A stretch of DNA of 64,000 nucleotides, from assembly GCF_053078305.1 (NCBI RefSeq), contig NZ_CP166879.1. One strand, given 5' to 3'. Shown here in pieces: positions 51,001 to 57,000 of the stretch. Made by a program: the position numbers. Position 1 is the stretch's first letter. Each line of letters starts with the position of its first letter.

Positions 51001-54000
51001 CAGTGTCAGTGAATCCCCGGTGTCACTGTATGCCTCTGCTGTTGCCAGAGTTTCTGCATCACCTGCGATGCGTGCCTGGCGTTCGGTCATCAGTAATCCG
51101 TCAGTACGGTTATTGATGTCGGTTTCTTTCTGGTCAGCATAAGTATTCGCACTGACCAGTGTTCTTTTGTTGTTTTCATCGCTGTGCGTTCTGGCAGCAG
51201 CCAGAGTTGCAGTATCGCCCGCGATGCGTGCCTGGCGTTCGGTCATCAGTAATCCGTCAGTACGGTTATTGATGGCGGTTTCTTTCTGGTCAGCATAGGT
51301 ATTCGCACTGATCAGTGTTCTTTTGTTGTTTTCATCGCTGTGCGTTCTGGCAGCAGCCAGAGTTGCAGTATCGCCTGCGGTGCGTGCCTGGCGTTCGGTC
51401 GTCAGTAATCCGTCAGTACGGTTATTGATGGCGGTTTCTTTCTGGTCAGCATAGGTATTCGCACTGACCAGTGTTCTTTTGTCGTTTTCATCGCTGTGGG
51501 CTCTGGCTGCAGCCAGCGCTGCTGCATCACCTTCTGTTCGGGCCCTGGTTTCAGTTATGACCTGACCAGAGAGGGTATTAAGCTGATTCTGCAGGTTGTT
51601 TGTTGATTTTATTCTTTCTCCAGCTTCCCGGTTAACAGCACTGGTCATCTGCATCAGATTTACCGCATCATGGTCATCTTTCCCCTGTGCCAGATTTGTG
51701 ATGCGGCGTTTCAGTGTGTCAGAGCCGACGGATACGATATTGTTTCCGTTAGCACTGGAATGACTGCCCAGTGCCACGGAGTCGTTCCCGGTTACGGACG
51801 ATGTCAGACCTATGGCAACAGATGAATCACCGTTAATTCTGGTGGCATTACCGAGGCTGACGCTGTAACCATCCAGCACAATATCTTCGCCCACTTTTCT
51901 GATCAAACCGGAAGCTTTTACCGTGGAGGAATTACCAATAACAATGTTGTTATACCCTCCCTCCACGGAATTACTGTTACCCACAACCAGACTGTTTGAC
52001 TCTGATGTGACAGTATTTTCACTGCCGTAAATATTTCCGGAGAATCGTGTTGTTGTATTGTTTTTTTCTCCGGTGATGTTCGGTGTGTTGACATCAGCAT
52101 GTGCTGTCTGACAGACGATGGCGGCTGACAGCATAGCTGCAACTGTTAATGAATAAGAAACGTGTTTTTTTACTTCGGACATTATTTTTTCCTGCCAGAT
52201 TATGACCTTTCAGGTCCCGGTATCCTGGATAAGCGCGGCAGACAGGAGACCACCTGCCTTTCTGAGGACAGGATGAGAAGCATCCGGTGTGATGGCGATG
52301 ATTAATTCATCATATGACCAGGGAAATTTTTCTGTTGCTGTACAGAGTTATTTGTGGTGGGCATACCCCTGATGCATCAGATTACGGAAATGTTTTTCCG
52401 GAGAAGAGAATACATGTCTTTTAATCCCACAGATGAACAGTACGCCATTATTAACTGGCAGGGGCAGCAACTGGTTGTGAATGCGTTTTCCGGCACAGGG
52501 AAGACGAGTACGCTGGTACAGTTTGCCCGGGCCAGTCCGGACAGCCGTATGCTCTATCTTGCCTATAACCGGGCAATACGTGATGAGGCAGAGCGTAAAT
52601 TTCCCTTTAACGTGGAATGCAGAACGTCACATCAGCTGGCGTATGCCCGGGTTGGAAGACACTACCGTCATCGGCTGGTTCCGGGATTACGTATTACTGA
52701 TGTGGCGAGAAAGCTGAATACACGATACTGGGCTCTGGCACGGGTGGCAGGGACGGGGCTGAATCACTTTATCTGTTCTGCCGATGCGGTACCGGGCCTG
52801 CATCACCTGCCGGATAAGGATGAGATGCGGGGTGTTCCGCCAGCAGATGCGCTTCGGGCGGTGCAGTTGCTCTGGAACGAAATGAGCAACCCCGGGGGGA
52901 CGTTCCCGGTGACGCACGATACTTATCTGAAACTCTTCCAGTTGTCCGGTGCAGACCTGTCTCACCGATGGGACACTATCCTGTTTGATGAGGCGCAGGA
53001 TGCGAATCCGGTGACCACTGCTCTGGTTCTGGGGCAGAAGTGTCGGGTGATCCTTGTTGGCGATCGTTATCAACAGATTTACCGCTTTCGGGGTGCGAAT
53101 AATGCACTTTCCCATCCTGCACTGAAGAATGCGGACCGGTTGTGGCTGACACAGAGTTTCCGTTTTGGTCCGGCGGTGGCTCGCATGGCAAATCTTCTTC
53201 TGCAGCGTGAAGGTGAAACACGAGAGGTGAAAGGTTGTGGTGGTGATGATGAGGTATTGCTGAAATGCCATGCGCGTGAACATCTGCAGGGGCATTACAC
53301 GGTACTCAGTCGTACTGTCGCGGGTGTGATTGGTACTGCGCTGATGGCGGCAATGAAAGGGCAAAAGGTTTACTGGGTGGGGGGAATCGAAGGTTACAGG
53401 ACCGGGGAACTTGAGGATCTCTACTGGTTCCAGGTTGATATGCCGGAACGGATGCATTCAGACAGGCTGCGCCGGGACTACAGGAATTTTGAAGAATATA
53501 AATATATTGCAAAATCCACGAAGGATGTGGAGATGAATCAGTCCCTTCGGCTTCTGGAGTTGTGTTTTCCGTTACCGAAAAAACTGGAACTTCTCCGGCA
53601 GTATACGGTAACGAATGAGCAGGATGCAGATATCACTGTGTCAACGGCACACCGGAGCAAGGGGCTGGAGTGGCCGGTTGTAATGCTGGATGAGGATTTC
53701 CAGGATATCACGGATCCGCTGATGACGGAGGCTGAGCGTCATGATGAAACCTGTCTGTTATATGTGGCTGTCACCCGGGCCCTCAGGACGCTGGTACTGA
53801 ATGATCTGATGCACCAACTGGCAGAAGAACAGCAGAAAACTGAAGGTTACCGGGGGACCGGGTACGACATCTCAGGTCTGGTTCAGGAGAATGGGCATGC
53901 TTGAACGCCTGAAAAGGTTATTTCCTGTGAAGACAGAATGCTCTGATGTCCGGACGGATATTCCCGGGGAAACGGTGCCGGAGGGGTATTTTACACCATT

Positions 54001-57000
54001 GCCGGCTGATGTACTGGTATCCACACCGTTCAGGAAAAGGTGTCTGAAACAGTTATGGGAAAACAGTTCCATGCCGGTGGATATGTATCAGCGCCTTTGT
54101 CTTGATCCTGTGCATCAGTTGTTGTCTGTCAGTCAGAATCTGCCGGCCACAGCAGAAGGTCGCTGGGGTTACACCGGTGGTTTTGGTGACCTGACCCTGC
54201 AGTTCACGACGTATGCTGTCCGGCTGGCCAGAGGCAGAATGTTTCCACCGGGAGCGACAGCAGAAGAGCAGGCCGCGCAGGGGAGTGTGTGGAACATGGT
54301 GGTGTTCTGGTCGGCTCTGTTTTATCACCTGCCGTTGCTGGCGGAACTGGAAGGCGAACAGGCCGACGGCAGATGCTGGCAGCCGGGGATATCTGTACCG
54401 GAGGGCGTATACCGGTTCCGGTTCAGGAAGATGCCCTGCCAGGGAACGGAGGGACGGCAACTGGCAGCCCTGATGGCGGGACAACTGCTGCCCGGAGAGG
54501 CGGGAGCCTGGCTTGCCACTGTCCCGGGGGCATTACAGAATCTTGCCGGAGCAGTCTGGCATCAGCATCCTGAAATGGCGCTGATACGTACAGTATTACA
54601 GGAAGCTATGGAGGAAGTCGTGAGTCCCCTCGCTGCAGGAGATGTGGCCGAAGTTCCGGTGGCTGAGGTTGTTCCGGTACTGCTGCAGTCAGCAGCAATT
54701 TCAGCAGAAAGCGTCATTCAGCCGTTGCCGGTTGTACAGTCGCCAGTGGAGGATGCCGAAAATGAGGGCCGGACAGCGGAACAGGAGGTGGATGAGGGGA
54801 ACGAAACTGATGCTGATACCGGAATGCTCCTTACGCTGTTTTCGGCTGCTGATTTGTCGGATGAGGGAGGGCAGATAGCGTCAGGCGTGCCGCCGGATAA
54901 AGAAAGCCGTATTGAGTTACCGGAAGAGAGCGGATGTGTAACAGAAAATCAGGGAAACCGTATCCCGGAAACAGTGGAAAAAACGGCAGAGTTTTCCCTG
55001 ACAGAGGATAGCAGGGTAGAGAGTGAATTTATCAGATGGTTAAAAGAGGGGCTGAGGGAGGGTTCACTTTCGGTTAACAGCGTTGATTCAAATGTTCATG
55101 TTGTTTCCGGATATGTTTTTCTGTGTGCCCCGGGGATTTTTTATCGTTTTCTGAAGGAGAGTGGTTCCGGGCAGGATCGTCGTTATGTTCAGTCGCTCTT
55201 TGAACGGGCAGGTATCCATAAGGTACGTTCAGGAGAGCGTTTTTTTCAGGCCCGTCTTTATAGTGACGCAGAACATTCCGGACGTTACAAAATGGTTTCG
55301 GGATATCTGGTTAAGGGCAGGTTTCTGTACGGGAATATTACGGTTCCCGGAGACAGCCCGCTTATTGTTTTCGGGTGAGTAAAGGCGATGATGTGCAGAA
55401 TTTGACCGGAGAGTGCGGGAGCACAGTAAACAAGGGGAATATATAATGCAGAATGACGATTCCGTCACAAAAATCACCTGGGAACAACTGCTGGAAGAGT
55501 ACTTTTTTTCAAAGAATCTTCGGCCGGATACAGAGTGGAGCTACTGCAAAGTTGTCAGGGTATTCAGGGAATTTATCGGTGATATTTTGCCGGGGGAGGT
55601 GACTGTCCGTGATGTTCAGCGATACCGGCGTTATGTCCTGAAAGAGCAGAAGCGCAGGGAGGTGACCTGGAATAACAAGGTGGCCCACTTGCGGGCAATT
55701 ATGGGATTCGGGATCAAGATGAAACTGCTGCCTCAGACAGAAAACCCGTTGGTGGAAGCATCAGTTGCGAGTACTGAAAAAAAGAAAAAGACACTGAGTG
55801 ACAATCAGATGCTCAGGGTTTACCTGGTTGTGCAGAGGTTTGCAGAAGCGGAAGAGCAGAACATGGTGAATAGTCGTCGACGCAATGCTATATACCCTGC
55901 CTGGTACTGGCTGACAGTTCTGGATGTTCTGCGTTATACCGGAATGCGCTTTAATCAACTGAAGCATATCCGTGTGAGGGATGTCTGTCCGGATGAAAGC
56001 ATAATTGATCTTAAGCTGGAGGGAAGTAAAACTCACAGGGAATGGGGCGTTCCTCTGGTGGCTCCCCTGAAGGTATCGATGGAAAAACTGCTGGAGCGGG
56101 CCCGTCAGTGCGGGGCAGGTGATGATGACTATCTTTTTGACGTCTGTCGTTTCAGTGAGCCGATCTCTGCCGACAGATATCAGTACTGTCCCGTTCGGGC
56201 GCATCAGACCGTACGTTCATTTTTCCGGCGACTTTCGCGAGAATGTGGTTTTCCTGTTTCACCACATCGTTTCAGACATACGCTGGCAACCAGACTGATG
56301 AAATATCCTGAACGTAATTTACATCTGGTCAAATCCATACTGGGACACAGGAGTCTTACAACGACCATGGGGTATGTTGATGTCTGTATGGAGTCTGCAG
56401 CGCAGACACTGGAAGATGCCCTGAGTTTGTATACAGATGAGCGCACAGTGAGCAAGATTTGCAAAGGGGGGAATAAATCTTGACAGGCTGAATCAGCGAT
56501 GTAAGCATACAGTGTTAACGAGAACAGGGCGTCTCCGGAAAAGACACCCTGTTTGAGGATACGATACCGAACTCAATCAGTGTAACCACAACTTACACAA
56601 ACGGAGACCCTTTGATGCCGCATCCTGTATTAACCGCCCGTCAAGGATCTCATCCCTTAACCAGCGTGTTCTGGTATATGGTGCCCGGAGGCGGAATCGA
56701 ACCACCGACACGGGGATTTTCAATCCCCTGCTCTACCGACTGAGCTATCCGGGCAACGGGGCGCATTAAACCTGATTCGCCTCGTCTCGTCAATCAAATT
56801 TCTTCAATTTACTGCAGACTGCACAATCTATCATCACTTTGCCGCTATTGCACGCATTGTCAGGCAAACCAGGCGGTCCAGGCGGCGGAAAGCGGCATTG
56901 CCAGAAGGAGTGCTGGAAGCATGTTGACCACCGGGAACATTTTAATGCCACAGATGCGTAATCCGGTTGCCAGCAGCAATAAACCGCCTACGGCGCTGAA

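What the first reader, a model, noticed from the sequence alone, without database searches (positions are those of the whole stretch)
52414..56754. Integrase-helicase module abutting tRNA-Phe defines one end of the island
The tRNA-Phe 3' end (56679) faces the integrase gene 200 bp away, then a UvrD-like helicase and a 495-aa unknown protein. Backbone genes (yqgA, speC, nupG, mltC, yggX, mutY) begin immediately on the other side of the tRNA. The other island boundary is not in the window.
Basis: partly seen in the sequence, partly recalled or inferred. Interest (0 to 1): 0.45.

Follow-up and report, generated by a model that had tools for sequence, protein, structure and literature searches.

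The report
End of a conjugative island at pheV
This is the integrase end of an ordinary, already well-described type of self-transmissible genomic island (an integrative conjugative element) inserted in the E. coli phenylalanine tRNA gene pheV; the "unknown" gene is its relaxase-like TraI gene.

Summary
tRNA-Phe lies at 56679-56754 (-). An intact tyrosine recombinase gene ends 195 bp from its 3' end. Upstream of it are a 493/495-aa gene and an SF1 helicase gene. Backbone genes yqgA, speC, nupG, mltC and yggX follow on the other side.

The "unknown" protein is a TraI_2/TraI_2_C protein (TIGR03760, above cutoff). The window also carries genomic-island-type T4SS genes. The island is therefore an ICE of the PFGI-1/PAPI-1/pKLC102/SPI-7 family, like ICEEc2, ICEEc8 and SGI-4.

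Near-identical modules sit at pheV or pheU in 23 of 5426 complete E. coli genomes. In two of them I traced a 69-85 kb element ending in a 50-bp repeat of the tRNA 3' part.

The junction lies inside the tRNA. The T-stem next to the integrase carries four element-derived, compensatory bases, so the crossover falls in the anticodon stem-loop/variable region (56707-56728).

TraI lacks every catalytic residue of characterised MOBH relaxases, which matches the known motif-less "MOBH3" state. What nicks the DNA is therefore an open question.

Verdict: a new member of a known kind, of low interest.

The parts
52414..53904 (+). SF1 (UvrD-like) DNA helicase, 496 aa; first gene of the three-gene module
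   Evidence: Pfam UvrD-helicase, UvrD_C and AAA_19. Weak NCBIfam hits to UvrD/PcrA/Rep/HelIV. Best solved relative is the helicase core of human FBH1 (9xzj, E 2.6e-53, residues 6-466). GTGKT, DEAQD and VTRA motifs are visible in the translation.
53897..55378 (+).
   Evidence: TIGR03760 ICE relaxase PFGI-1 class, 210.5 bits against a cutoff of 161.4. Pfam TraI_2 at 32-218 and TraI_2_C at 378-491. The C-terminal domain matches PDB 2IPQ, STY4665 of S. Typhi. All catalytic positions of canonical relatives are substituted.
55446..56483 (+). Integrase: simple (Xer-like, no arm-binding domain) tyrosine recombinase, 345 aa
   Evidence: Pfam Phage_integrase plus SAM-like N-terminal domain. NCBIfam hits are only sub-threshold Xer families. 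R, K, HxxR, H and Y align with XerA 5HXY. It is 56% identical to the SGI-4 integrase.
56523..56553 (+). 12-bp-stem hairpin downstream of the integrase gene (possible terminator; no T-run)
   Evidence: the repeat finder inverted repeat I1, 92% complementary, 7-nt loop. Function is inferred only.
56634..56668 (.). 35-nt att arm segment next to the core, conserved with SGI-4 attP (33/35 identical) although the two modules are only about 68% identical overall
   Evidence: Alignment A2 and the SGI-4 attP sequence. A role as a recombinase or accessory-protein binding site is inferred.
56679..56728 (-). 50-bp att core: tRNA-Phe positions 27-76 (anticodon stem-loop to CCA), integrase-proximal copy. 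It carries element-type bases at 56690-56691 and 56705-56706 (T-stem G49 G50 / C64 C65).
   Evidence: Alignment A2 with K-12 empty pheV, both ends of the NCCP 13963 element and SGI-4 attP. The same variant sits next to the integrase at pheU in strain 154. The native-type copy lies at the far ends.
56707..56728 (-). Interval in which strand exchange must have occurred: 22 bp identical in both partners, 5' of the T-stem differences. It covers the anticodon stem-loop plus the variable region.
   Evidence: Deduced from the distribution of the 4 differences between the two att copies.
56679..56754 (-). Hybrid tRNA-Phe(GAA) gene (pheV): 5' part chromosomal, 3' part element-derived
   Evidence: ARAGORN; alignment A2.
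2561..5362 (+). Genomic-island-type T4SS genes of the same element (TIGR03757, TIGR03756, TIGR03755)
   Evidence: NCBIfam, all far above cutoffs.
25553..26470 (+). Second, unrelated tyrosine-recombinase-like gene of the element (Integrase_1 family), in the ArdC/DUF1281/methylase region
   Evidence: Pfam PF12835 (5e-55) plus PF12834. No meaningful similarity to the terminal integrase. Homologues at 44-53% identity occur on Klebsiella, Salmonella, Citrobacter and Pantoea 'plasmids', several of which also carry the module.

Best explanation
The region is the integrase-proximal end of an integrative conjugative element (ICE) of the PFGI-1 / PAPI-1 / pKLC102 / SPI-7 family (genomic-island-type T4SS), integrated in E. 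coli pheV.

**Integration and excision**
- The terminal gene encodes a simple Xer-like tyrosine recombinase. It recombines a 50-bp attP core, a copy of tRNA-Phe positions 27-76, with the same stretch of pheV or pheU.
- Exchange occurs in the anticodon stem-loop/variable region, so the element replaces the 3' part of the tRNA with its own copy.
- That copy differs by two compensatory base pairs in the T-stem, so the gene stays intact. The original 3' part is displaced to the far end, beyond parA.
- The reverse reaction yields a circle in which helicase-traI-int is followed by attP and then parA-dnaB-parB.

**Transfer**
- The two upstream genes overlap each other (the helicase stop overlaps the traI start by 8-14 nt) and are followed, after a 67-nt gap, by int on the same strand. 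They are the DNA-processing part.
- One is a TraI_2/TraI_2_C protein expected to act at oriT. The other is an SF1 helicase expected to unwind the strand delivered to TraD and the T4SS.

**What is shown and what is inferred**
- Shown here: gene identities, the family context, the att structure, the hybrid tRNA, independent insertions at pheV and pheU, and the empty site.
- Shown by others for relatives (SGI-4; ICEEc2 from memory): excision, circularisation, conjugation and reintegration at Phe tRNA genes.
- Inferred: that this copy is active, that the helicase serves transfer, and how TraI works. TraI lacks the known catalytic residues.
For: - TIGR03760 above cutoff, and Pfam TraI_2 plus TraI_2_C, for the 'unknown' gene.
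- TIGR03755/56/57 ICE T4SS genes in the same window.
- Integrase with a complete R-K-HxxR-H-Y set, 56% identical to that of SGI-4.
- SGI-4 has the same helicase-traI-int order followed by attP and parA in its circular form pSGI4.
- SGI-4 is shown to conjugate, to exist as a plasmid, or to integrate at pheV/pheR (PMC6543542, PMC7716197).
- The module is >=95% identical in 23 of 5426 complete E. coli genomes (24 hold >=80% of it), and annotated the same way.
- Complete elements were traced in NCCP 13963 at pheV (about 69 kb) and in O22:H8 strain 154 at pheU (85.2 kb). Both have the full set of ICE replication, partition, pilus and T4SS genes.
- Both have the 50-bp repeat at their two ends.
- K-12 has an empty site.
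- TraI-integrase adjacency holds in 7 of 7 diverse TraI_2 neighbourhoods.
- pheV/pheU-borne ICEs are described in E. coli: ICEEc2 (cited in PMC11537424 and PMC6761156) and ICEEc8, which has a 52-bp repeat of the pheV 3' end (PMC6455142).
Against: - The far end, and therefore the completeness of this particular copy, is outside the window.
- Nothing here demonstrates excision or transfer.
- TraI lacks the alternative 3H motif, the HD motif, the catalytic Tyr and the metal-binding Asp. All of these are essential in the one biochemically characterised MOBH relaxase (PMC6736028). The 'relaxase' step is therefore not explained by known chemistry.
- No oriT-like inverted repeat or promoter stood out upstream of the helicase.
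- The helicase is not a universal partner of TraI_2 proteins.
Confidence: 0.9

Rival explanations
1. An immobile remnant: a once-conjugative element now fixed at pheV, so that the module is a relic marking an island edge but no longer works.
For: The far end is not in the window. Relatives carry IS elements and pseudogenes inside the element. ICEKp2, a relative, excises but did not transfer in the laboratory (PMC6761156).
Against: All three genes are intact with complete recombinase and helicase motifs. Modules at least 99% identical occur at two different tRNA genes (pheV and pheU) in different strains, which indicates recent mobility of the lineage. T4SS genes in the window are full length and score far above family cutoffs.
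Confidence: 0.2
2. A classical non-conjugative pheV pathogenicity island with a P4-type integrase, which is the usual occupant of pheV in E. coli.
For: pheV is best known for such islands (PMC11537424). The cargo includes adhesins (YadA-like protein, two-partner-secretion haemagglutinin).
Against: The integrase is 345 aa and Xer-like, without an arm-binding domain. ICE T4SS and TraI genes are present. In two relatives the P4-type integrase island lies beyond the far repeat as a separate, tandem element.
Confidence: 0.02
3. The TraI_2 protein is not the nickase. It is a DNA-binding or recruitment factor, and oriT cleavage is done by another element enzyme, for example the Integrase_1-family tyrosine recombinase at 25553-26470 or the terminal integrase itself. 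This would be analogous to the recombinase-like relaxases MpsA, TcpM and MobK.
For: Every catalytic position conserved at >=91% in 33 canonical relatives is substituted: S85T, E86A, HHH88-90GRW, H99L, HD143-144YH, K absent, D150E, Y183G, H186G, D238M. The position of the catalytic Tyr is not conserved in 60 motif-less relatives. The literature states that the MOBH3 clade lacks both motifs and may have another function (PMC6736028). A second recombinase-like gene with an apparent R..K..HxxR..H..Y set exists in the element. Recombinase-like relaxases are established (PMC6414798, PMC8152469).
Against: There is no experimental link. The second recombinase was not shown to be related to MpsA, MobK or TcpM. 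The motif-less TraI N-domain is strongly conserved among relatives that share only about 55% identity (long invariant blocks), so it has a constrained function that could still be catalytic by unknown residues. TraI-type genes were reported as needed for transfer of related ICEs (statement in PMC6736028).
Confidence: 0.2

Closest known systems
SGI-4 of monophasic Salmonella Typhimurium ST34 (and 'SGI-4-like elements')
   Same: Same order: UvrD-like helicase, TraI, integrase, attP, then parA-dnaB-parB. It integrates at Phe tRNA genes. The att core is the tRNA-Phe 3' part of about 49-50 bp. A 35-nt arm next to the core is 33/35 identical. The integrase is 56% identical. Conjugation, a plasmid state and integration are demonstrated (PMC6543542, PMC7716197).
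   Different: Only about 68% nucleotide identity over 56% of the module. The SGI-4 attP carries the native enterobacterial T-stem, whereas this element carries a variant. Cargo is metal resistance there; here it is adhesins and a sialic-acid cluster.
ICEEc2 (E. coli BEN374; Roche et al. 2010) and ICEEc8 (STEC O117:H7/O91:H14)
   Same: E. coli ICEs of the pKLC102/PAGI-2/PAPI family at Phe tRNA genes (PMC6761156, PMC11537424). ICEEc8 is 86.5 kb at pheV, flanked by a 52-bp repeat of the tRNA 3' end (PMC6455142). From memory of its abstract, ICEEc2 transfer depended on a set of three DNA-mobility genes plus a type IV pilus.
   Different: ICEEc8 has a perfect repeat and carries sigA about 20 kb from the integrase; neither is seen here. 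The commonest E. coli/Salmonella TraI of this kind (551 aa) is only about 50% identical to this one.
SPI-7 of Salmonella Typhi
   Same: A Phe-tRNA ICE-derived island. Its TraI homologue STY4665 supplies the solved TraI_2_C domain that matches this protein (2IPQ). It is likewise of the motif-less MOBH3 type (PMC6736028). Relatives of the element here carry 'SPI-7-type' dnaB and STY4528/STY4534-family genes.
   Different: About 50-55% identity in TraI. Different cargo (Vi antigen there).
PAPI-1 / pKLC102 / PFGI-1 / ICEclc of Pseudomonas
   Same: Same T4SS gene families and TraI family model (TIGR037xx). The integrase sits at the element end next to a tRNA gene. They are grouped as one ICE family in reviews (PMC5812530). 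Integrases of PAPI-1, ICESb2 and ICEEc2 form the IntKX subgroup of simple tyrosine recombinases (PMC8138268).
   Different: Target is tRNA-Lys or tRNA-Gly. Representative TraI proteins carrying the canonical HHH/HD motifs, whose host organisms I could not identify, are only 19-33% identical to this one. No helicase gene was seen upstream of TraI in the canonical examples examined.
TraI of the gonococcal genetic island (prototype MOBH relaxase)
   Same: Same domain architecture: TraI_2, a disordered middle part, then TraI_2_C (PMC6736028).
   Different: The alternative 3H motif, HD motif, Tyr212, His215 and Asp267 equivalents are all absent here.

Membership tests
ICE of the PFGI-1/PAPI-1/pKLC102/SPI-7 (ICEclc-ICEHin1056) family | Genomic-island-type T4SS genes (TIGR03755/03756/03757 etc.) | tested here: met
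   536, 432 and 114 bits against cutoffs of 270, 188 and 73.
ICE of the PFGI-1/PAPI-1/pKLC102/SPI-7 (ICEclc-ICEHin1056) family | TraI_2-type (MOBH) relaxase gene of the PFGI-1 class | tested here: met
   TIGR03760, 210.5 bits against a cutoff of 161.4. Pfam TraI_2 plus TraI_2_C.
ICE of the PFGI-1/PAPI-1/pKLC102/SPI-7 (ICEclc-ICEHin1056) family | Tyrosine recombinase at the element end next to a tRNA gene, adjacent to traI | tested here: met
   The same adjacency holds in 7 of 7 family neighbourhoods.
ICE of the PFGI-1/PAPI-1/pKLC102/SPI-7 (ICEclc-ICEHin1056) family | Flanking direct repeats derived from the tRNA 3' part; parA/dnaB/parB module at the other end | not testable with these tools
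   The other end is outside the window. Both features are met in two near-identical relatives.
ICE of the PFGI-1/PAPI-1/pKLC102/SPI-7 (ICEclc-ICEHin1056) family | Excision, circularisation and conjugative self-transfer | not testable with these tools
   Demonstrated only for relatives (SGI-4: PMC6543542, PMC7716197).
Catalytically canonical MOBH relaxase (MOBH1/MOBH2) | Alternative 3H motif (S-E-x-H-H-H) | tested here: not met
   The window has T85 A86 E87 G88 R89 W90, where 33 canonical representatives have S/E/HHH at >=91%.
Catalytically canonical MOBH relaxase (MOBH1/MOBH2) | HD phosphohydrolase motif (H-D-x-x-K) and downstream metal-binding Asp | tested here: not met
   Y143 H144, no Lys column, and M238 in place of Asp.
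Catalytically canonical MOBH relaxase (MOBH1/MOBH2) | Catalytic Tyr with nearby His (Y212/H215 of GGI TraI) | tested here: not met
   G183 and G186 at columns that are 97% Y and 97% H in canonical representatives. The mapping to GGI numbering is inferred from motif order, because the GGI sequence was not in hand.
Tyrosine recombinase, simple Xer-like type (IntKX subgroup) | Catalytic R, K, H-x-x-R, H/W and Y; SAM-like core-binding domain; no arm-binding domain | tested here: met
   Alignment to XerA 5HXY and 4A8E. Pfam domains. IntKX membership itself was not tested against reference sequences; it is inferred from context (PMC8138268).
SF1 UvrD/Rep/PcrA-like helicase | Walker A, DExx (DEAQD) and C-terminal UvrD_C motifs across a full helicase core | tested here: met
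   Pfam. Full-length alignment to the FBH1 helicase core with motifs conserved.
P4-type-integrase pheV pathogenicity island | Integrase of about 400-420 aa, P4-like, next to the tRNA; no conjugation genes | tested here: not met
   345-aa Xer-like enzyme. T4SS and TraI genes are present.
SGI-4-like elements as defined in PMC6543542 (>=75% nt identity over >40% of SGI-4) | Nucleotide identity threshold | tested here: not met
   68.5% identity over 56% of the module. Only the module was compared.

The most novel reading that the evidence does not exclude
In this enterobacterial ICE lineage the TraI_2 protein may be a catalytically inert oriT-binding or recruitment factor. In that case the transferred strand would be nicked by a tyrosine-recombinase-type enzyme, either the Integrase_1-family protein at 25553-26470 or the terminal integrase. 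The FBH1-like SF1 helicase encoded just upstream of traI would act as the unwinding motor. That would make a large, clinically relevant ICE group (SPI-7, SGI-4, ICEEc2-like) users of a recombinase-like relaxase.
Probability: 0.15. Interest if true: 0.6.

Novelty: new member of a known kind. Interest (0 to 1): 0.15.

Why it matters
There is little that is new for biology at large. It documents one more lineage of a known ICE family that carries adhesin and sialic-acid-utilisation genes between E. coli strains through the two Phe tRNA genes.

Two points have some value.
- The four element-specific T-stem bases make a simple sequence marker. They show that a pheV or pheU gene has been rebuilt by this element, and they place the crossover in the anticodon stem-loop/variable region.
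- The module is a clean, widespread example of the unresolved question of how ICEs with motif-less (MOBH3-type) TraI proteins nick their DNA. The candidate partners, an SF1 helicase and a second recombinase-like gene, lie in the same element.

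Tried and rejected
- **Helicase as compensation for a dead TraI.** I tested whether the upstream helicase is a general correlate of motif-less TraI proteins. Rejected. Of three motif-less neighbourhoods only one had the helicase (P0153, 51% identical). P0140 and P0179 had none, and the four canonical ones had none.
- **oriT or promoter upstream of the helicase (52183-52413).** Only trivial short palindromes were found. The consensus scan found fewer promoter-like sites than shuffled controls. Uninformative.
- **The search for related loci with the integrase in genome contigs.** No confirmed hit. The collection holds one genome per species and the patterns were too specific.
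- **Full-text search for 'MOBH3'.** It returned only quantum-chemistry papers.
- **The ICEEc2 paper (PMC2944505).** It is not held, so statements about it rest on citing papers and on my memory of its abstract.
- **NCBIfam on ten ORFs between 20306 and 32894.** No hits.
Rejected on gene content.
- **The first E. coli search.** It failed on a length limit, as did one region fetch.

Full report
**1. What is in the sequence**

ARAGORN finds a single tRNA in the window, tRNA-Phe(GAA) at 56679-56754 on the minus strand.

Three plus-strand genes lie to its left:
- A helicase gene, 52414-53904.
- A 493/495-aa gene, 53891/53897-55378, whose start overlaps the helicase stop.
- A recombinase gene, 55446-56483, after a 67-nt gap.

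The recombinase stop is 195 bp from the tRNA 3' end.

To the right are yqgA, speC, nupG, mltC and yggX. This stretch is about 98.5% identical to E. coli chromosomes with those annotations, and the proteins match the NCBIfam equivalogs.

**2. What the genes are**

- *The 'unknown' protein.* It scores 210.5 bits on TIGR03760, 'integrating conjugative element relaxase, PFGI-1 class' (cutoff 161.4). It has Pfam TraI_2 and TraI_2_C domains. Its C-terminal domain matches the solved STY4665 domain of Salmonella Typhi SPI-7.
- *The helicase.* It is an SF1 enzyme with UvrD-type domains.
- *The recombinase.* It is a 345-aa Xer-like enzyme with a SAM-like core-binding domain and no arm-binding domain. 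Its R, K, HxxR, H and Y residues all align with XerA.
- *The rest of the window.* At the left end (2561-5362) are TIGR03757, TIGR03756 and TIGR03755 T4SS genes, far above their cutoffs.

The whole 56.7 kb left of the tRNA therefore belongs to an integrative conjugative element (ICE) of the PFGI-1/PAPI-1/pKLC102/SPI-7 family. The finding is its DNA-processing and integration end.

**3. Relatives and the other boundary**

The module is at least 95% identical in 23 of 5426 complete E. coli genomes (24 hold at least 80% of it), and is annotated the same way there. A further 109 genomes carry 60-80% identical versions.

*Strain NCCP 13963.* The module sits next to pheV. The element continues for about 69 kb through T4SS, pilus, topoisomerase III, ssb, parB, SPI-7-type dnaB and parA genes. 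Just beyond parA lies a partial tRNA-Phe copy.

*O22:H8 strain 154.* An element with most of this window's cargo sits at pheU instead, next to dicD/dsbD. It ends the same way 85.2 kb away.

In both strains a P4-type integrase island follows the far repeat. The ICE therefore lies between the tRNA gene and an island of the classical P4-integrase kind, in tandem with it. The order of arrival was not determined.

K-12 has the empty site, with yghD following pheV.

No second copy of the tRNA 3' end exists in the window, so the far boundary is indeed outside it. By comparison with relatives, it should lie some 35-40 kb left of the window start.

**4. The junction is inside the tRNA**

I aligned the window, K-12, both ends of the NCCP 13963 element and the attP of circular SGI-4. 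The alignment shows a 50-bp repeat equal to tRNA positions 27-76.

- The integrase-proximal copy is window 56679-56728. It differs from native E. coli pheV at four bases (56690-56691 and 56705-56706).
- These changes turn T-stem pairs C49-G65 and U50-A64 into G-C and G-C. They are compensatory.
- The far-end copies carry the native bases.
- The same variant sits next to the integrase at pheU in strain 154. The variant bases therefore arrive with the element.
- It follows that strand exchange happens in the 22 identical bp 5' of them (56707-56728), covering the anticodon stem-loop and variable region. The resulting pheV gene is a hybrid.
- From general knowledge (Williams 2002), this fits the anticodon-loop class of tRNA integration sites.

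The variant 37-mer is the native tRNA-Phe 3' part in many other Gammaproteobacteria, including Marinobacter, Alcanivorax, Marinobacterium, Microbulbifer, Xenorhabdus and Salinivibrio.

Among the 120 loci returned, integrase relatives (41-55% identity) lie beside the variant 37-mer only in these:
- Pantoea stewartii
- Erwinia sp.
- Pluralibacter
- Citrobacter braakii
- two Xenorhabdus species

A 35-nt stretch next to the core (56634-56668) is 33/35 identical to SGI-4 attP, although the two modules are only about 68% identical overall. It is probably a protein-binding arm; this is inferred.

**5. How it most likely works**

By homology with SGI-4, the integrase excises and integrates the element at Phe tRNA genes. 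SGI-4 has the same gene order, a 56% identical integrase and an attP followed by parA. It has been shown to circularise, conjugate, persist as a plasmid or integrate at pheV/pheR (PMC6543542, PMC7716197).

TraI and the helicase are the presumed DNA-processing proteins feeding TraD and the T4SS. Near-identical copies at two different tRNA genes argue for recent activity of the lineage. Activity of this particular copy is not shown.

**6. The one non-trivial point: TraI lacks the known active site**

I aligned the protein with 93 representative homologues.
- 33 of them carry the S-E-x-HHH, D-H, HD..K, D, Y..H and D positions at >=91% conservation.
- The window protein has T, A, GRW, L, YH, no K, E, G, G and M at those positions.
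- 60 representatives share this motif-less state, and the 'catalytic Tyr' column is not conserved among them.

These are the residues shown to be essential for cleavage by the gonococcal TraI. The same paper states that the MOBH3 clade, including the Salmonella protein of PDB 2IPQ, lacks both motifs and may have another function (PMC6736028). This is therefore a known state and not a discovery.

The N-terminal domain is nevertheless highly conserved among relatives that share only about 55% identity, so it is under constraint.

I tested whether the adjacent helicase is a general partner of motif-less TraI proteins. It is not. TraI-integrase adjacency, by contrast, held in 7 of 7 neighbourhoods.

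The element also encodes a second, unrelated recombinase-like protein (25553-26470; Pfam Integrase_1). Recombinase-like relaxases exist (MpsA, MobK, TcpM; PMC6414798, PMC8152469), so it is a speculative candidate nickase. I give that reading about 15%.

**7. Comparison and verdict**

The closest described systems are SGI-4, ICEEc2, ICEEc8 (52-bp pheV repeat, PMC6455142), SPI-7 and, more distantly, PAPI-1, pKLC102, PFGI-1 and ICEclc (PMC5812530, PMC6761156, PMC8138268).

This lineage differs from them in several respects:
- TraI is only about 50% identical to the common 551-aa E. coli/Salmonella type.
- The integrase is 56% identical to that of SGI-4.
- It does not meet the published SGI-4-like nucleotide threshold.

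It has the same architecture and logic as those systems. I did not find it named in the literature I could search.

It is a new member of a known kind.

Noticed in passing
window 33797-42696: A complete accessory sialic-acid utilisation cluster carried as ICE cargo: nanA lyase, nanK kinase, sialate:H+ symporter, two acetyl-esterases, an OmpL/NanC-like porin, nanM epimerase and divergent nanR. The closest cargo relative, strain 154, appears to lack about 12 kb of window DNA somewhere between 31000 and 52300, which could include this cluster; this is estimated from coordinates only.
   Followed up: partly
window 11345-22582 (- strand): A two-partner-secretion pair: a 2981-aa haemagglutinin-repeat protein and a 579-aa ShlB/FhaC-type transporter, with a small ORF between them. 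Versions 94-98% identical occur in many STEC and bovine E. coli.
   Followed up: partly
window 25553-26470 (+): A second tyrosine-recombinase-like gene (Pfam Integrase_1 plus Phage_int_SAM_2), unrelated to the terminal integrase. Homologues occur on ICE-like 'plasmids' and on a few 8-27 kb plasmids typed as non-mobilizable. Its role is unknown; it may be a recombinase-like relaxase.
   Followed up: partly
window 52414-53904 (+): The ICE helicase is far closer to the helicase core of human F-box DNA helicase 1 (9xzj, E 2.6e-53, near full length) than to bacterial UvrD, PcrA or Rep structures (E 1e-9 to 1e-6).
   Followed up: no
L002 22169-23431 and L006 25045-26307 (relatives NCCP 13963 and strain 154): In both relatives a P4-type integrase island begins right after the ICE's far repeat, with identical junction sequence at pheV and at pheU. 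This shows tandem islands at both Phe tRNA genes.
   Followed up: partly
loci L015-L134: The element-type tRNA-Phe 3' half (T-stem GGTGG/CCGCC) is the native allele in many marine Gammaproteobacteria and in Xenorhabdus. This hints at the kind of host in which this attP was shaped.
   Followed up: partly
window 48655-52182: Cargo next to the module: a YadA-like trimeric autotransporter (50662-52182, -), an ORF (49934-50422) at the position where the two relatives annotate a GNAT acetyltransferase, preceded by an ORF where they annotate a TacA/DUF1778-type antitoxin (a toxin-antitoxin pair), and a second dolP-like lipoprotein gene (48655-49230).
   Followed up: no
window 43450-44493 (-) and 1706-2425 (+): A subtilisin/mycosin-like serine protease gene, and an AraC/YdeO/GadX-like regulator gene placed just upstream of the T4SS genes.
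   Followed up: no
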